Positions 37,140 through 59,398 of a stretch of DNA of 64,000 bases are shown piece after piece. The translations under genes were made by a program, and so were the position numbers. A model generated the notes under the pieces. It saw nothing but the letters and a program-made list of their open reading frames with translations, ran no database searches and was not told the origin of the DNA. Position 1 is the stretch's first letter. Each line of letters starts with the position of its first letter. The stretch lies in sequence record MT129654.1. One strand, 5' to 3'. The stretch comes from Escherichia phage MN04.

Positions 37140-37185
37140 GTTTACAAGGTCTATAGACATGATACTATAGACCTATCAAAACAAA
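37140..37185 (+). promoter_or_regulatory. Early promoter module
   Basis: GTTTACA, 17-bp spacer, TACTAT, conserved AGACCTATCAAAACA. Confidence 0.6.
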
Positions 37186-55626: not shown

Positions 55627-55920
55627 ATGGGTATTTTCCGTACAGTGGCTTGTATCCTTATGATTGGATGTTTAAGCCCAACATCTTCACTAGCAAACAA
55701 ATCCGACCCTAAATTGATGGACGCCTTTGCTAGTAGTGCGATGCCAGTTTATGCGCAAATGAGTAAACCTAGTGTAAAGGCCTCCGAAGACTACTGGGCT
55801 TATGTAACTGCTTCTTGGAAAATTTCAAATTGCAATACAATAGAGTCTTGCTCGATTGAAGGTCGGGCTATCGGAGAACGATACGCTAAACTAATGAAGG
55901 TAGATGATGAAATTCAATGA
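55627..55920 (+). CDS. Secreted protein or lipoprotein (hypothetical)
   Basis: Signal peptide MGIFRTVACILMIGCLSPTSSLA with lipobox-like LMIGC. Confidence 0.5.
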   Translation: MGIFRTVACILMIGCLSPTSSLANKSDPKLMDAFASSAMPVYAQMSKPSVKASEDYWAYVTASWKISNCNTIESCSIEGRAIGERYAKLMKVDDEIQ

Positions 55921-56290
55921 TTTCGTACTTAGTCGAGGGACTGAAGTAGATTCTTATATTGGTTGGCTGTTGGTTTCTTTAGCCTATTTTAAGTCAGCCC
56001 ATTTGGAAACCAAAAGCTATGCAAGACACAAAGCATATGACTTCTATTATACAGAAGTTCAAGGACCACTAGACCAGTTCAGTGAACAGTATTTAGGATT
56101 TAGTGGCAAAGAATATAAAGCATCACTACCATCTGCTTCAGAACTGCCTAAAGACCCCATAGATTTTCTTGATGAACTTATTAAAGCGTCTGATAAAATC
56201 TACAAAAATCTTCCTAAGGCCATCCAATCGACTTTGGACGACATCACTGGTGTCTTTTACCAGACTAAGTATTTGTTAACGTTAGAATAA
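55904..56290 (+). CDS. Hypothetical protein
   Basis: 128 aa; followed by strong terminator. Confidence 0.45.
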   Translation: MMKFNDFVLSRGTEVDSYIGWLLVSLAYFKSAHLETKSYARHKAYDFYYTEVQGPLDQFSEQYLGFSGKEYKASLPSASELPKDPIDFLDELIKASDKIYKNLPKAIQSTLDDITGVFYQTKYLLTLE

Positions 56291-56295
56291 TCAAA

Positions 56296-56322
56296 GGTCT
56301 CACTTCGGTGGGACCTTTTTTC
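56296..56322 (+). terminator. Rho-independent terminator (GGTCTCAC-TTCG-GTGGGACC then TTTTTT)
   Basis: 8-bp stem plus T6 right after stop 56290. Confidence 0.65.
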
Positions 56323-56330
56323 GTTTTAGT

Positions 56331-56371
56331 GTTTACATCCTCTAGGAACGTGATACTATAGACCTATCAAC
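56331..56371 (+). promoter_or_regulatory. Early promoter module
   Basis: GTTTACA ... GTGATACTATAGACCTATCAACTA. Confidence 0.6.
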
Positions 56372-56387
56372 TAATGAGGAGAACAGT

Positions 56388-56624
56388 ATGAAACTTACAA
56401 GTACTACGGTTTCATTGGAATATGAAATCAATAACCGCCTCCTTGAGATTAAGATATTCGACGACCGAAGTATCTTTGCTGACTACCGAGGGTACAGAAT
56501 TCGTCTAGAAAAGGACGAGCTCAAGGAACCATGGCTCCTTAAAGACACATTAAAGGGTTGTGGGTGTAAGCTGAAGACCACTCAAGCCCAAGAATTAATT
56601 TCTACTATCAACAAATACTGGTGA
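56388..56624 (+). CDS. Hypothetical protein
   Basis: 78 aa; GAGGAG RBS. Confidence 0.45.
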   Translation: MKLTSTTVSLEYEINNRLLEIKIFDDRSIFADYRGYRIRLEKDELKEPWLLKDTLKGCGCKLKTTQAQELISTINKYW

Positions 56625-56628
56625 TATT

Positions 56629-56811
56629 ATGTTAACTACCGAACAGATTGAGAAAATTATCAAACTCGCCCAGCATATTGAAAACGCATCCAATGACCTA
56701 GCTGTTGAATATTGCGAAGGTTATTCATATTCCGGAATAGAGCAGTGTAAACGAGATTTGGCTAACTCTAAAGCAGCCTTGGCTGAGTATCTTAATGAGT
56801 TGAAAGCATAA
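56629..56811 (+). CDS. Hypothetical protein
   Basis: 60 aa. Confidence 0.4.
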   Translation: MLTTEQIEKIIKLAQHIENASNDLAVEYCEGYSYSGIEQCKRDLANSKAALAEYLNELKA

Positions 56812-57068
56812 TGGCCGTTGGATTTGCTAAGGACGGAGCCGAACAGCTCGAAATGGAAGCGGTCGTTCAGGCCGCTATAGTACACGCCCGTAAGCAAGTA
56901 GCAGTTGAACGTGAATCGGCTAAATATTGTTTTGATTGCGATGAAGAGATTCCTGAAGCACGACGTCAAGCTATCAAAGGTGTGATATATTGTATAGGTT
57001 GTCAGTCAATGCATGATGAAATTTTTAAACGTGAGCCACGTAACTGTTGGCACAGGAGCATGAGATGA
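56811..57068 (+). CDS. TraR/DksA-type C4 zinc-finger protein
   Basis: CFDC-x17-CIGC (CxxC-x17-CxxC) spacing typical of the DksA/TraR family. Confidence 0.55.
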   Translation: MAVGFAKDGAEQLEMEAVVQAAIVHARKQVAVERESAKYCFDCDEEIPEARRQAIKGVIYCIGCQSMHDEIFKREPRNCWHRSMR

Positions 57069-57160
57069 TTTACTATCTTGAACCTTGGGCTTGGCTTACA
57101 ATGCTTATTGGTCCAGTTTTAATAGGTTTATTCTTTTCATGGCTAGCGAGGAAACTGTAA
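57065..57160 (+). CDS. Hydrophobic micro-peptide (31 aa), tentative
   Basis: MIYYLEPWAWLTMLIGPVLIGLFFSWLARKL; overlap-coupled on both sides (ATGA / TAATG). Confidence 0.3.
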   Translation: MIYYLEPWAWLTMLIGPVLIGLFFSWLARKL

Positions 57161-57938: not shown

Positions 57939-58391
57939 ATGATTATCAATTCAAACTCTTGGCACGTTAAATTACACGACCGTTTTTATGACCGTCATTC
58001 TCGACCGCACTCTTTGTGTGCTTATTTCTGGAAAATGGTTTGGGCTTGTTTTGCTTGTGCCATTGTTGCAGGTAGTACGCTTTTTGGATTAACTGTTGCA
58101 GGCGCTGGTGTATTAGAGCATTTCTTTGTATTAAGTACTCCCGTTCTGTTGAGTCTAGGGTTTGTTTTAGGGTTGATTGCAATAGCTCTTATTATTGCTC
58201 TATCCATTGGTTTGGCATTAGGTGCGATGAATTTACACGCGTGGTATGATGCACGTAGAGAAGAAAAGGAATGGCAACGTATTCAAGCTGAGCGTGAAGG
58301 CCGAGAAACTAAAGAAAATATCGTCGTCCAATACATTAAAGCTCGTAAATCTAAGATGTGTCCTGTAATCCACTTCGAGAACAAAGAATGA
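57939..58391 (+). CDS. Membrane protein (hypothetical)
   Basis: 150 aa; two long TM segments. Confidence 0.5.
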   Translation: MIINSNSWHVKLHDRFYDRHSRPHSLCAYFWKMVWACFACAIVAGSTLFGLTVAGAGVLEHFFVLSTPVLLSLGFVLGLIAIALIIALSIGLALGAMNLHAWYDARREEKEWQRIQAEREGRETKENIVVQYIKARKSKMCPVIHFENKE

Positions 58392-59398
58392 GAACTGTTA
58401 TGAAAGGCTACTTCGGTAGCCACCTTTATGGAACAAGTACTCCGGAATCTGATGTCGATTTTAAAGAAATCTTTGTTCCACATCCGCGTGATATTCTGTT
58501 AGGTACGGCTATGAACCATACCAACCTGAACACGAATAACACTGCTTCCAAAAACACTAAAGATGATGTTGACCATGAGCTTTATAGTCTGAAATATTTC
58601 TTTAAACTGGCTGCTGAAGGCGAAACCGTTGCTCTGGATATGCTCCACACTCCGCCTGAAATGGTGGTTAAATCTGATTTACCTGATGTATGGAAATTTA
58701 TCCAAGACAACCGTTCTCGGTTCTATACAACCAACATGAAAGCCTATTTAGGGTACGTCCGTAAGCAAGCTTCTAAATATGGTGTTAAGGGTTCTCGACT
58801 GGCTGCTCTGCGTGGTGTACTGGCTATTGTTAACCAGATTCCTGAACAATGGGTCGATTATCAAGAAGACGGTTCGACTAAGCAACGTCGCACTAAGGTA
58901 GAAGATATCAAACATCGACTCCCTGAAAATGAGTTCTGTGAATGGGTATTCCATAACCATGAGAAAACAGGACCTCAAACGTTCTATACTGTTCTCGGAC
59001 GTAAGTACCAAACCACTTTGTCATTAATCGAGCTCAAGCAATCTCTGAATAAGCTCGATGCGGAATATGGTGAACGCGCTCGTAAAGCTGAAGCTAACGA
59101 AGGTATTGACTGGAAAGCTCTGAGCCATGCTTATCGTGCTGGTTATCAGTTGAAGGAAATCTATCAAACTGGTGACCTCCAATATCCTTTACGTACAGCA
59201 CCGTTTATCCTTGAAATCAAACAAGGGCTTCATGCTTTTAAAGATGTACAGGCCGAACTTGAAGCTATCGTTGATGAAGTCGAAACCAATGCTATCTGGG
59301 CCGCTAAGAACGGCATGCCTGAGAAGGTAGACATGAAGTTCTGGGACAAGTTCGTTGAAGAGGTGTACCTTGACAACCACAACGCTTATTACCGCTAA
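58388..59398 (+). CDS. Nucleotidyltransferase-fold protein (hypothetical)
   Basis: ATG 58388 (ATGA overlap; alt 58400); 'GYFGSHLYGTSTPESDVDF' = GS-x11-DxD NTase signature, downstream third Asp (ALDMLH). Confidence 0.55.
   Translation: MRTVMKGYFGSHLYGTSTPESDVDFKEIFVPHPRDILLGTAMNHTNLNTNNTASKNTKDDVDHELYSLKYFFKLAAEGETVALDMLHTPPEMVVKSDLPDVWKFIQDNRSRFYTTNMKAYLGYVRKQASKYGVKGSRLAALRGVLAIVNQIPEQWVDYQEDGSTKQRRTKVEDIKHRLPENEFCEWVFHNHEKTGPQTFYTVLGRKYQTTLSLIELKQSLNKLDAEYGERARKAEANEGIDWKALSHAYRAGYQLKEIYQTGDLQYPLRTAPFILEIKQGLHAFKDVQAELEAIVDEVETNAIWAAKNGMPEKVDMKFWDKFVEEVYLDNHNAYYR

What the first reader, a model, noticed from the sequence alone, without database searches (positions are those of the whole stretch)
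56811..57068. TraR/DksA-family zinc-finger protein (candidate RNA polymerase secondary-channel binder)
85-aa ORF with CFDC-x17-CIGC spacing, the C4 zinc-finger arrangement of DksA/TraR proteins, which bind the RNA polymerase secondary channel; phage versions can reprogram host transcription.
Basis: partly seen in the sequence, partly recalled or inferred. Interest (0 to 1): 0.4.

Follow-up and report, generated by a model that had tools for sequence, protein, structure and literature searches.

The report
YbiI-type DksA/TraR zinc-finger phage protein
This is a real, strongly conserved early gene of a T4-like coliphage that encodes a small zinc-finger protein of the DksA/TraR superfamily (YbiI branch); it probably docks into the host RNA polymerase, but relatives are already annotated this way in public phage genomes and nobody has tested what the protein does.

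Summary
The 85-aa ORF at 56811..57068 (+) exists exactly as described, with C40xxC43-x17-C61xxC64. The window is a JS98-like Dhakavirus, and the protein is identical to JS98 orf95. It passes Pfam PF01258 (38.1 bits against a cutoff of 24.9) and matches PHROG 54. All 41 full-length phage orthologues keep the cysteine spacing. dN/dS is 0.03–0.10.

It is not a TraR-type protein. Its closest relatives are E. coli YbiI (PDB 2KGO) and NCBIfam NF008243. The tip reads MAVGFAKDGA, so the first Asp of TraR's DxxDxA motif is replaced by Phe. A conserved C-terminal tail that TraR lacks is also present, here in a phage-specific form, FKRxPRNCWHRSMR.

The TraR residues that contact RNA polymerase at the channel rim are conserved (E49, R51, R52). 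The AlphaFold model superposes on polymerase-bound TraR (TM 0.72, 2.3 Å). The gene lies in a predicted early operon.

Secondary-channel binding is therefore plausible (about 0.5) but untested. Sister phages already carry this annotation, so this is a new member of a known kind and of modest interest. The conserved termini are the only unexplained feature.

The parts
56811..57068 (+). CDS, 85 aa: YbiI-type DksA/TraR-superfamily C4 zinc-finger protein, identical to JS98 orf95 (YP_001595224)
56811..56846 (+). Codons 1-12 (MAVGFAKDGAEQ): YbiI-type N-terminal tip with G4, aromatic F5, D8 and A10. This is the most constrained segment of the gene.
   Evidence: 5-6 synonymous and 0 nonsynonymous differences against three distant orthologues. 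The motif MAxG[FW]xxDGA is shared with bacterial YbiI.
56829..56897 (+). Predicted N-terminal helix (residues 7-29), the counterpart of the TraR N-helix that inserts into the secondary channel
   Evidence: AF2 model; superposition on TraR chains 5W1S_M and 6N57_M; hhalign 99.7% over residues 13-81
56928..57002 (+). C4 zinc finger: C40xxC43-x17-C61xxC64
56949..56966 (+). I47-P48-E49-A50-R51-R52, the counterpart of TraR I44-P45-E46-A47-R48-R49 (contacts with the beta' rim helices and beta'Si3)
   Evidence: I47, P48, R51 and R52 are invariant and E49 is at least 90% conserved. IPxxRR is present in 196 of 225 homologues. Residue roles are from PMC9239242 and PMC6970531.
56994..57023 (+). Predicted C-terminal helix (residues 62-71), shorter than the TraR C-helix (58-73)
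57024..57065 (+). C-terminal tail F72-KREPRNCWHRSMR85. It is specific to this phage clade, invariant across the clade, homologous to the YbiI tail NRRGSKDSQLR, and predicted disordered.
56293..56318 (+). Terminator-like hairpin (11 bp stem, TTCG loop, T-run) closing the upstream rI / rI.-1 unit
56331..56359 (+). T4-early-type promoter-like site GTTTACA-N-TGaTACTAT, the predicted start of the operon that holds the zinc-finger gene
   Evidence: The motif family is enriched in the window: 15 sites against 3.9 expected, 12 of them on the gene strand.
56388..56811 (+). Two upstream genes of the same predicted operon: a 78-aa phrog_10363 protein and a 60-aa MobD.3/DUF7438 protein. The second overlaps the zinc-finger start codon (TAATG).
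57065..57160 (+). Downstream small ORF (31 aa, one predicted transmembrane helix). Its ATG overlaps the zinc-finger stop (ATGA), and a GGAG Shine-Dalgarno lies inside the tail codons.

Best explanation
The gene encodes a small zinc-ribbon protein that is made early in infection and binds host RNA polymerase in the way TraR does. [quoted passage not shown] The N-terminal helix would run down the channel and place the conserved tip (G4-F5...D8-x-A10) next to the active-site region. In that position it would change open-complex kinetics without ppGpp and would exclude DksA and the Gre factors, shifting transcription from host promoters such as rRNA promoters towards phage needs.

Shown here: superfamily membership, the fold, conservation of the contact residues, purifying selection, and the predicted early-operon position.

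Inferred: polymerase binding itself, the direction of any regulatory effect, and any role for the conserved C-terminal tail. The tail could be an extra contact with the beta lobe/Si1, with DNA, or with a partner protein.
For: 1. Pfam PF01258 is above its gathering score, and PHROG 54 matches.
2. Profile-profile alignment with TraR-type proteins gives 99.7% probability and E=7.6e-27 over residues 13-81.
3. The AF2 model (pLDDT 71.8; helices 7-29, 49-54 and 62-71) superposes on TraR taken from RNA polymerase complexes: 5W1S_M at TM 0.72 and 2.3 A, 6N57_M at TM 0.70 and 2.8 A.
4. The TraR residues E46, R48 and R49 (rim-helix and Si3 contacts) correspond to E49, R51 and R52, which are invariant or at least 90% conserved.
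5. D8 and A10 match the second half of DxxDxA (DksA D74 and A76, the functionally critical tip residues). D8 lies 32 residues before the first Cys, inside the 28-34 range seen in TraR-type proteins.
6. The tip is the most constrained part of the gene, with 0 nonsynonymous against 5-6 synonymous changes.
7. Over-expressed E. coli YbiI is reported to rescue the amino-acid auxotrophy of a dksA deletion (PMC2613031, data not shown).
8. X. bovienii Gp34, a TraR homologue that lacks D3, still binds polymerase as well as TraR does.
9. The gene sits behind a T4-early-type promoter with no terminator in between. The jumbo-phage orthologue lies among consensus sigma-70 promoters.
Against: 1. The full DxxDxA motif is absent. 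An aromatic residue replaces the first Asp, and D3N in lambda Orf73 strongly reduces inhibition.
2. [quoted passage not shown] An N-terminal extension was suggested to lower the activity of VHML Orf8.
3. Profile alignment does not align the tips.
4. In other phage YbiI-type clades even the Ala of DxA is missing, so the family-wide constraint is G-[FW]...D and not DxxDxA.
5. All curated NCBIfam TraR and YbiI equivalog cutoffs are missed.
6. Some C4 DksA/TraR-family proteins do not act on polymerase at all, for example RSP0166 and SMc00049.
7. [quoted passage not shown]
8. No experiment on any YbiI-type phage protein was found.
Confidence: 0.5

Rival explanations
1. Passive plug. The protein binds the secondary channel but has little regulatory activity of its own. 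Its role would be to keep DksA (and with it ppGpp site 2), GreA and GreB off the polymerase, insulating phage transcription from the host stringent and stress responses.
For: The rim-contact residues and the fold are the same as in the best explanation. The catalytically relevant tip is degenerate: the first Asp is missing here, and the Ala is also missing in other phage clades, which would fit binding without TraR-like allostery. Gp34, which lacks D3, binds well but inhibits poorly. Rnk is a precedent for a secondary-channel binder that acts by competition.
Against: The tip is the most strongly conserved segment of the gene, which is hard to explain if it only fills space. YbiI is reported to rescue the auxotrophy of a dksA deletion, which implies positive DksA-like activity.
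Confidence: 0.2
2. Not a polymerase factor. YbiI-type proteins use the zinc ribbon and their two conserved termini to bind a different, highly conserved target, such as a metal- or iron-related partner, a stress-response component, or a nucleic acid. The phage copy would manipulate that target.
For: The hallmark termini (MAxG[FW]xxD and the tail NRRGSKDSQLR, or RNCWHRSMR in this clade) are absent from TraR and DksA. They are conserved from bacteria to phages of Klebsiella, Acinetobacter and Erwinia. E. coli ybiI lies in an iron-metabolism cluster and is sigma-S dependent. According to the JS98 annotation the Pseudomonas relative is PA4870, which is induced 13.9-fold by RpoH. Several C4 DksA/TraR-family proteins lack DksA function. 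All NCBIfam equivalog cutoffs are missed.
Against: The TraR residues that contact polymerase (IPEARR) are invariant. The fold matches polymerase-bound TraR better than anything else in the PDB. There is the reported rescue of a dksA deletion. No conserved neighbouring gene hints at another pathway, and there is no match to defence-system families.
Confidence: 0.25
3. Decaying or non-functional passenger ORF in a hyperplastic region of the phage genome.
For: The gene is accessory. T4 has no homologue in the syntenic tk-nrdD region. Mosigviruses keep only a 54-aa chimeric remnant that lacks the first CxxC.
Against: dN/dS is 0.03-0.10. All four Cys and both termini are invariant across orthologues down to 60% identity, in four T4-like genera and in roughly 350-kb jumbo phages.
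Confidence: 0.02

Closest known systems
E. coli YbiI (88 aa; PDB 2KGO; NCBIfam NF008243 / PRK11019), an uncharacterised DksA/TraR-family C4 zinc-finger protein
   Same: It is the best sequence match among solved structures (E=3.6e-9, aligned from residue 1) and the best NCBIfam model (76 bits). It has the same N-terminal signature MAxG[FW]AxDxA, the same CxxC-x17-CxxC, the same IP(E/Q)ARR, a similar length, and a positionally homologous basic C-terminal tail. The intermediate P0082 tail HNRKVWHRSMR links the two tail forms.
   Different: The score is below the equivalog cutoff (76 against 96 bits), and the match stops at residue 71. The canonical tail GYNRRGSKDSQLR is replaced by REPRNCWHRSMR. 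There is one extra residue in the helix-to-finger linker. The protein is phage-encoded and predicted to be expressed early, whereas ybiI is a sigma-S-dependent chromosomal gene. YbiI's own function is unknown.
F-plasmid TraR (73 aa; PDB 5W1S, 6N57) and its temperate-phage homologues lambda Orf73, P2 Orf82, VHML Orf8 and VP882 Orf61
   Same: It shares the three-part architecture of N-helix, C4 zinc domain and C-helix. hhalign gives 99.7%, and the model-to-structure TM is 0.70-0.72. The equivalents of E46, R48 and R49 are conserved. It is carried by a mobile element and is small enough to act without ppGpp.
   Different: The tip is FxxDxA instead of DxxDxA and has two extra N-terminal residues. 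The C-helix is shorter and is followed by a conserved 14-residue tail. The TIGR02419 and NF010268 cutoffs are not met. It is encoded by virulent T4-like and jumbo phages rather than by temperate phages or plasmids. No biochemical data exist.
DksA (151 aa; PDB 1TJL, 5VSW, 7KHI)
   Same: It shares the zinc-finger globular domain. D8 and A10 correspond in pattern to the critical D74 and A76. The weak fold matches have TMq 0.52-0.54.
   Different: There is no coiled-coil hairpin (a single helix only), no ppGpp-binding residues and no D71 equivalent. NF033459 scores 13 bits against a cutoff of 105.

Membership tests
Pfam PF01258 zf-dskA_traR (DksA/TraR C4 zinc-finger superfamily) | HMM score above the gathering threshold | tested here: met
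   38.1 bits against a cutoff of 24.9, E=1.6e-9, residues 38-66
Pfam PF01258 zf-dskA_traR (DksA/TraR C4 zinc-finger superfamily) | Four Cys as CxxC-x17-CxxC, conserved among homologues | tested here: met
   C40, C43, C61 and C64 are invariant. The x17 spacing is present in 41 of 41 phage orthologues and 203 of 225 homologues.
TraR-type secondary-channel regulators (TraR, lambda Orf73; TIGR02419 / NF010268) | N-terminal DxxDxA motif at the start of the N-helix | tested here: not met
   The sequence is F5-A-K-D8-G-A10, so only the DxA half is present. The tips are excluded from the profile-profile alignment. 32 TraR-type representatives carry DxxDxA, whereas 157 YbiI-type ones carry G[FWY]x2-3[DE].
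TraR-type secondary-channel regulators (TraR, lambda Orf73; TIGR02419 / NF010268) | Globular-domain residues that contact the beta' rim helices and Si3 (TraR E46, R48, R49) | tested here: met
   E49, R51 and R52 are invariant or at least 90% conserved. Residue roles are from PMC9239242 and PMC6970531.
TraR-type secondary-channel regulators (TraR, lambda Orf73; TIGR02419 / NF010268) | C-terminal helix that contacts the beta lobe/Si1 | tested here: inconclusive
   A helix is predicted at residues 62-71 and aligns with the TraR C-helix. It is shorter and is followed by a Pro-containing conserved tail. The contact residues could not be evaluated.
TraR-type secondary-channel regulators (TraR, lambda Orf73; TIGR02419 / NF010268) | Curated NCBIfam model cutoffs | tested here: not met
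   TIGR02419 scores 51.5 against 59.7. NF010268 scores 29.2 against 108.
TraR-type secondary-channel regulators (TraR, lambda Orf73; TIGR02419 / NF010268) | Binds RNA polymerase, regulates rrnB P1 and amino-acid promoters, and complements a dksA deletion | not testable with these tools
   This requires biochemistry or genetics. The only related report is the YbiI rescue of a dksA deletion, given as data not shown in PMC2613031.
YbiI family (NCBIfam NF008243 / PRK11019) | Equivalog HMM cutoff | tested here: not met
   76 bits against a cutoff of 96. The match covers residues 1-71 only, so the tail is not matched.
YbiI family (NCBIfam NF008243 / PRK11019) | N-terminal signature M-A-x-G-[FW]-x-x-D-x-A | tested here: met
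   MAVGFAKDGA. It is the same as in bacterial members such as MAGGFAKDGA and MASGWANDDA.
YbiI family (NCBIfam NF008243 / PRK11019) | C-terminal tail ...NRRGSKDSQL[RK] | tested here: not met
   It is replaced by PRNCWHRSMR. It appears homologous through the intermediate P0082 tail (NRKVWHRSMR) but is clearly diverged.
DksA (NF033459) | Coiled-coil hairpin with a DxxDxA tip, ppGpp-binding residues, and length of about 150 aa | tested here: not met
   The protein is 85 aa with a single N-helix. It scores 13.4 bits against a cutoff of 105.

The most novel reading that the evidence does not exclude
YbiI-type proteins, including this phage clade, are a functionally distinct class of polymerase (or other) effectors and not merely weak TraR copies. 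An aromatic N-terminal hook (G-[FW]) would replace the first acidic tip residue and reach two residues further towards the active site. A conserved basic C-terminal tail (NRRGSKDSQLR, retooled to RNCWHRSMR in Dhakavirus-like and jumbo coliphages) would make a second contact that TraR lacks. Large virulent phages would have captured this bacterial stress-regulon protein repeatedly as an early host-takeover factor.
Probability: 0.2. Interest if true: 0.55.

Novelty: new member of a known kind. Interest (0 to 1): 0.3.

Why it matters
T4-type phages are the textbook case of stepwise takeover of host RNA polymerase (Alt/Mod, AsiA/MotA, gp33/gp55), and T4 itself has no secondary-channel factor. A TraR-like protein made early by many non-T4 Straboviridae and by jumbo phages would add a ppGpp-independent layer to that takeover. 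tblastn finds matches in 752 phage records. It could also give E. coli YbiI, an orphan stress-regulon protein with a solved structure, its first functional handle.

The practical value of this locus is modest. The family assignment is already in public annotation (Merlin 'zinc finger protein, DksA/TraR-like'; UP19 'ybiI'; PHROG 54). What is missing is experiment, not discovery.

Tried and rejected
1. Tail conservation as a by-product of the overlapping downstream ORF and its Shine-Dalgarno. Rejected. In the jumbo phage Turkey5 the downstream gene is different and does not overlap, and the tail codons differ synonymously (AGC to TCT, AGG to AGA, CAC to CAT) while the peptide is unchanged.

2. 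A conserved partner gene next to the zinc-finger gene, by analogy with VP882 QisA-TraR. Rejected. The upstream and downstream neighbours in the window, Merlin and Turkey5 are unrelated.

3. A link to defence or anti-defence. There was no PADLOC hit.

4. A T4 homologue in the syntenic tk-nrdD region. None was found at E<=10.

5. Fixing the tip register by sequence. hhalign leaves the tips unaligned. Ungapped extension from the helix would put D8 opposite TraR A5, while anchoring through YbiI puts it opposite D6. The register therefore remains unresolved, and only the distance range is compatible.

6. Literature on the function of YbiI, PA4870, or DksA-like proteins of virulent phages. I found only expression data and one 'data not shown' remark.

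7. My first count of Cys spacing gave a spurious x14 class, because a lazy regex picked up an extra Cys58 present in 19 orthologues. This was corrected.

Full report
**Observation.** The window carries an ATG-to-TGA ORF at 56811..57068 on the + strand. It encodes 85 residues with C40-F-D-C43, 17 residues, then C61-I-G-C64. This is the only CxxC-x15-19-CxxC motif in any of the six reading frames of the 64-kb window. The start codon overlaps the stop of the upstream gene (TAATG). The stop overlaps the ATG of a small downstream ORF (ATGA).

**Genome context.** The region is 98.6% identical to Escherichia phage JS98 (Straboviridae, Dhakavirus). The protein is identical to JS98 orf95, annotated 'hypothetical protein, similar to P. 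aeruginosa PA4870'. It lies in the variable region between tk/rI and nrdC.11.
- Upstream are tk, a 92-aa ORF, rI (antiholin) and rI.-1 (DUF5856).
- A terminator-like hairpin follows at 56293-56318, then a promoter-like site at 56331-56359 reading GTTTACA-N-TGaTACTAT.
- That motif occurs 15 times in the window against 3.9 expected by shuffling, and 12 of the 15 are on the gene strand. From general knowledge it matches the T4 early-promoter form (GTTTAC at -35 with an extended -10).
- Behind it, with no predicted terminator before 59593, come these genes: a 78-aa ORF, MobD.3/DUF7438, the zinc-finger gene, a 31-aa membrane ORF, DUF7189, MobD.1 (y05I-like), a membrane protein, and the NrdC.11 nucleotidyltransferase.

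The gene is therefore predicted, not shown, to be early.

**Family.**
- Pfam PF01258 (zf-dskA_traR) scores 38.1 bits against a gathering cutoff of 24.9.
- PHROG 54, 'DksA-like zinc-finger protein', gives E=4.6e-20.
- In NCBIfam the best model is NF008243, the YbiI equivalog, at 76 bits and below its cutoff of 96. TIGR02419 (TraR subfamily) follows at 51.5 against 59.7, then NF010268 (TraR) at 29 against 108.
- Among solved structures the best sequence match is E. coli YbiI (2KGO) at E=3.6e-9, aligned from residue 1. TraR (5W1S, 6N57) is at about 2e-4.
- An AlphaFold2 model built on 73 homologues has mean pLDDT 71.8, helices at 7-29, 49-54 and 62-71, and both termini at low confidence.
- Foldseek places that model on TraR chains taken from RNA polymerase complexes. 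5W1S_M gives a target-normalised TM of 0.72 and rmsd 2.3 A. 6N57_M gives 0.70 and 2.8 A. DksA follows more weakly.
- In the viral structure library the top hits are DksA-like phage zinc fingers.

**Homologues and selection.**
- A word-indexed search returned 77 homologues. Those numbered P0001 to P0042 form the phage clade at 59-94% identity. They come from Dhaka-, Gapriver-, Moon- and Marfavirus-type phages, Yersinia phages, and jumbo phages of E. coli and Salmonella (319-356 kb). Bacterial YbiI-like proteins of 88-89 aa follow at about 45%.
- tblastn finds matches in 752 phage records, mostly large virulent phages of Klebsiella, Escherichia, Acinetobacter, Erwinia, Enterobacter and Aeromonas.
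- An exhaustive HMMER scan of 1.84 billion representatives gives 437 relatives at E<=1e-3.
- The four Cys, I47, P48, R51 and R52 are invariant. M1, A2, G4, D8, A10, A17, S36, E49, G57, Q65 and R82 are at least 90% conserved.
- CxxC-x17-CxxC is present in all 41 full-length phage-clade orthologues and in 203 of 225 homologues.
- Pairwise dN/dS is 0.03-0.10, with synonymous sites near saturation.
- By segment, codons 1-12 show 5-6 synonymous and 0 nonsynonymous differences against Klebsiella R3_1, Merlin and Turkey5. The tail (codons 72-85) shows 2-6 synonymous and 0-3 nonsynonymous differences.

**Two classes of short DksA/TraR proteins.** Sorting the retrieved proteins separates two groups.
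- The TraR type begins M(x)DxxDxA and has no conserved tail.
- The YbiI type begins M-A-x-G-[FW]-x-x-D-G-A and usually ends ...NRRGSKDSQL[RK].

The window protein has the YbiI-type tip (MAVGFAKDGA). Its tail, FKRxPRNCWHRSMR, is confined to its own phage clade and invariant within it. P0082 (...HNRKVWHRSMR) is intermediate, so the two tails appear positionally homologous.

The tail is constrained at the protein level. In the jumbo phage Turkey5 the downstream gene differs and does not overlap, and the Ser, Arg and His codons differ synonymously, yet the peptide is unchanged.

Other virulent-phage clades carry the exact bacterial tail YNRRGSKDSQLR. These are Klebsiella RCIP0002 and JD18, Acinetobacter Maestro, and Erwinia pEa_SNUABM_19. 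Their tips keep G-[FW]-G-x-x-D but not the Ala.

**How it most likely works.** TraR consists of three parts (PMC6970531; PMC9239242):
- an N-helix (residues 2-27) that runs down the secondary channel to within 4.3 A of the active-site Mg and carries the essential DxxDxA motif;
- a zinc globular domain (28-57) that sits on the beta' rim helices (R48) and contacts beta'Si3 (E46, R49, K50);
- a C-helix (58-73) that contacts the beta lobe/Si1.

The window protein reproduces this architecture. Profile-profile alignment with 28 TraR-type sequences gives 99.7% probability over residues 13-81. It also keeps the equivalents of E46, R48 and R49.

D8 and A10 match the DxA half of the tip motif, corresponding in pattern to DksA D74 and A76, which are the functionally critical tip residues. 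D8 lies 32 residues from the first Cys, within the 28-34 range of TraR-type proteins.

Blankschien et al. state that over-expressed YbiI rescues the auxotrophy of a dksA deletion but not that of a relA spoT deletion (data not shown), and they list it as a putative secondary-channel protein.

On this basis the best explanation is early-expressed, ppGpp-independent binding in the secondary channel of host RNA polymerase. I give it a confidence of about 0.5.

**Weaknesses.**
- The first Asp of DxxDxA is replaced by Phe, or by Trp in bacteria.
- The N-terminus is two residues longer than TraR's.
- hhalign does not align the tips, and the register cannot be fixed by sequence.
- D3N in lambda Orf73 is strongly defective. 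Gp34, which lacks D3, binds polymerase but inhibits poorly.
- Some C4 family members have no DksA-like activity.
- No paper in the searchable library tests a YbiI-type protein from any phage.

The rivals are a passive channel plug (0.2), a target other than polymerase that is recognised through the two hallmark termini (0.25), and a decaying ORF (0.02, contradicted).

**Accessory status.**
- T4 has no homologue in the syntenic tk-nrdD region.
- Mosigviruses (JS09, HX01, DCP548) keep only a 54-aa chimera. It fuses a DUF7189-like N-terminus to the C-terminal half of the zinc-finger protein and has lost the first CxxC.
- The neighbours of the gene are unrelated in Merlin, Turkey5 and the window.

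The gene therefore behaves as a free-standing cassette.

**Novelty and verdict.** The family assignment is already public. Merlin is annotated 'zinc finger protein, contains DksA/TraR-like domain', Turkey5 'TraR/DksA C4-type zinc finger protein' and UP19 'ybiI', and PHROG 54 covers the family. The finding is a correct but ordinary annotation. This analysis adds three points:
- the protein is YbiI-type, not TraR-type;
- it fails the strict tip-motif test for TraR-like function, while it passes the fold and rim-contact tests;
- both termini are under the strongest constraint, and the tail has a phage-clade-specific form whose role is unexplained.

Interest is 0.3. I file it as a new member of a known kind.

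Noticed in passing
window 57065..57160 (+): There is a 31-aa ORF here (MIYYLEPWAWLTMLIGPVLIGLFFSWLARKL) with one hydrophobic helix. A GGAG Shine-Dalgarno lies at 57055-57058. Its ATG overlaps the zinc-finger stop (ATGA), and its stop overlaps the next gene's start (TAATG). It is not annotated in JS98, but it is annotated in JS09 (JS09_078, 'VR7 ORF105c-like') and is 93.5% identical there. It is probably a real small membrane protein.
   Followed up: partly
L004 2459..2623 (phage JS09, JS09_077); also P0044, P0048, P0063, P0065: Mosigviruses carry 54- to 64-aa chimeric proteins (phrog_25948). A DUF7189-like N-terminus is fused to the C-terminal half of the zinc-finger protein, from about V58 to RNCWHRSMR. 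The first CxxC is lost, and P0063 has also lost C61. They look like recombination remnants, yet they are kept as ORFs in several phages.
   Followed up: partly
window 56293..56359 (+), with sites of the same form at 37140, 41237, 49670, 52196 and 61811 among others: A terminator-like hairpin is followed directly by a GTTTACA-N-TGnTACTAT promoter-like site. The promoter motif occurs 15 times in the window against 3.9 expected, and 12 of the 15 are on the + strand. From memory this resembles the 'promoter-early stem-loop' cassettes proposed to mediate gene shuffling in T4-type phages. I did not check that against a paper.
   Followed up: partly
window 55904..56290 (+): The rI.-1 homologue (DUF5856, phrog_858) carries the database name 'starvation-inducible transcriptional regulator'. 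Nothing seen here supports that function. The name may be a transferred annotation.
   Followed up: no
window 56982..56984 (codon 58) and orthologues: In 19 of the 41 phage-clade orthologues, residue 58 is Cys (G-C-x-Y-C) where this protein has Val. That gives a fifth Cys three residues before the third zinc ligand. The tail also contains a conserved Cys79 and His81. Whether these form an alternative or second metal site is unknown.
   Followed up: no
window 58358..59398 (+): The mechanical ORF list starts the NrdC.11-like nucleotidyltransferase at GTG 58358. The JS98 annotation corresponds to ATG 58388, which overlaps the stop of the preceding membrane-protein gene. The later start is more likely.
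   Followed up: no
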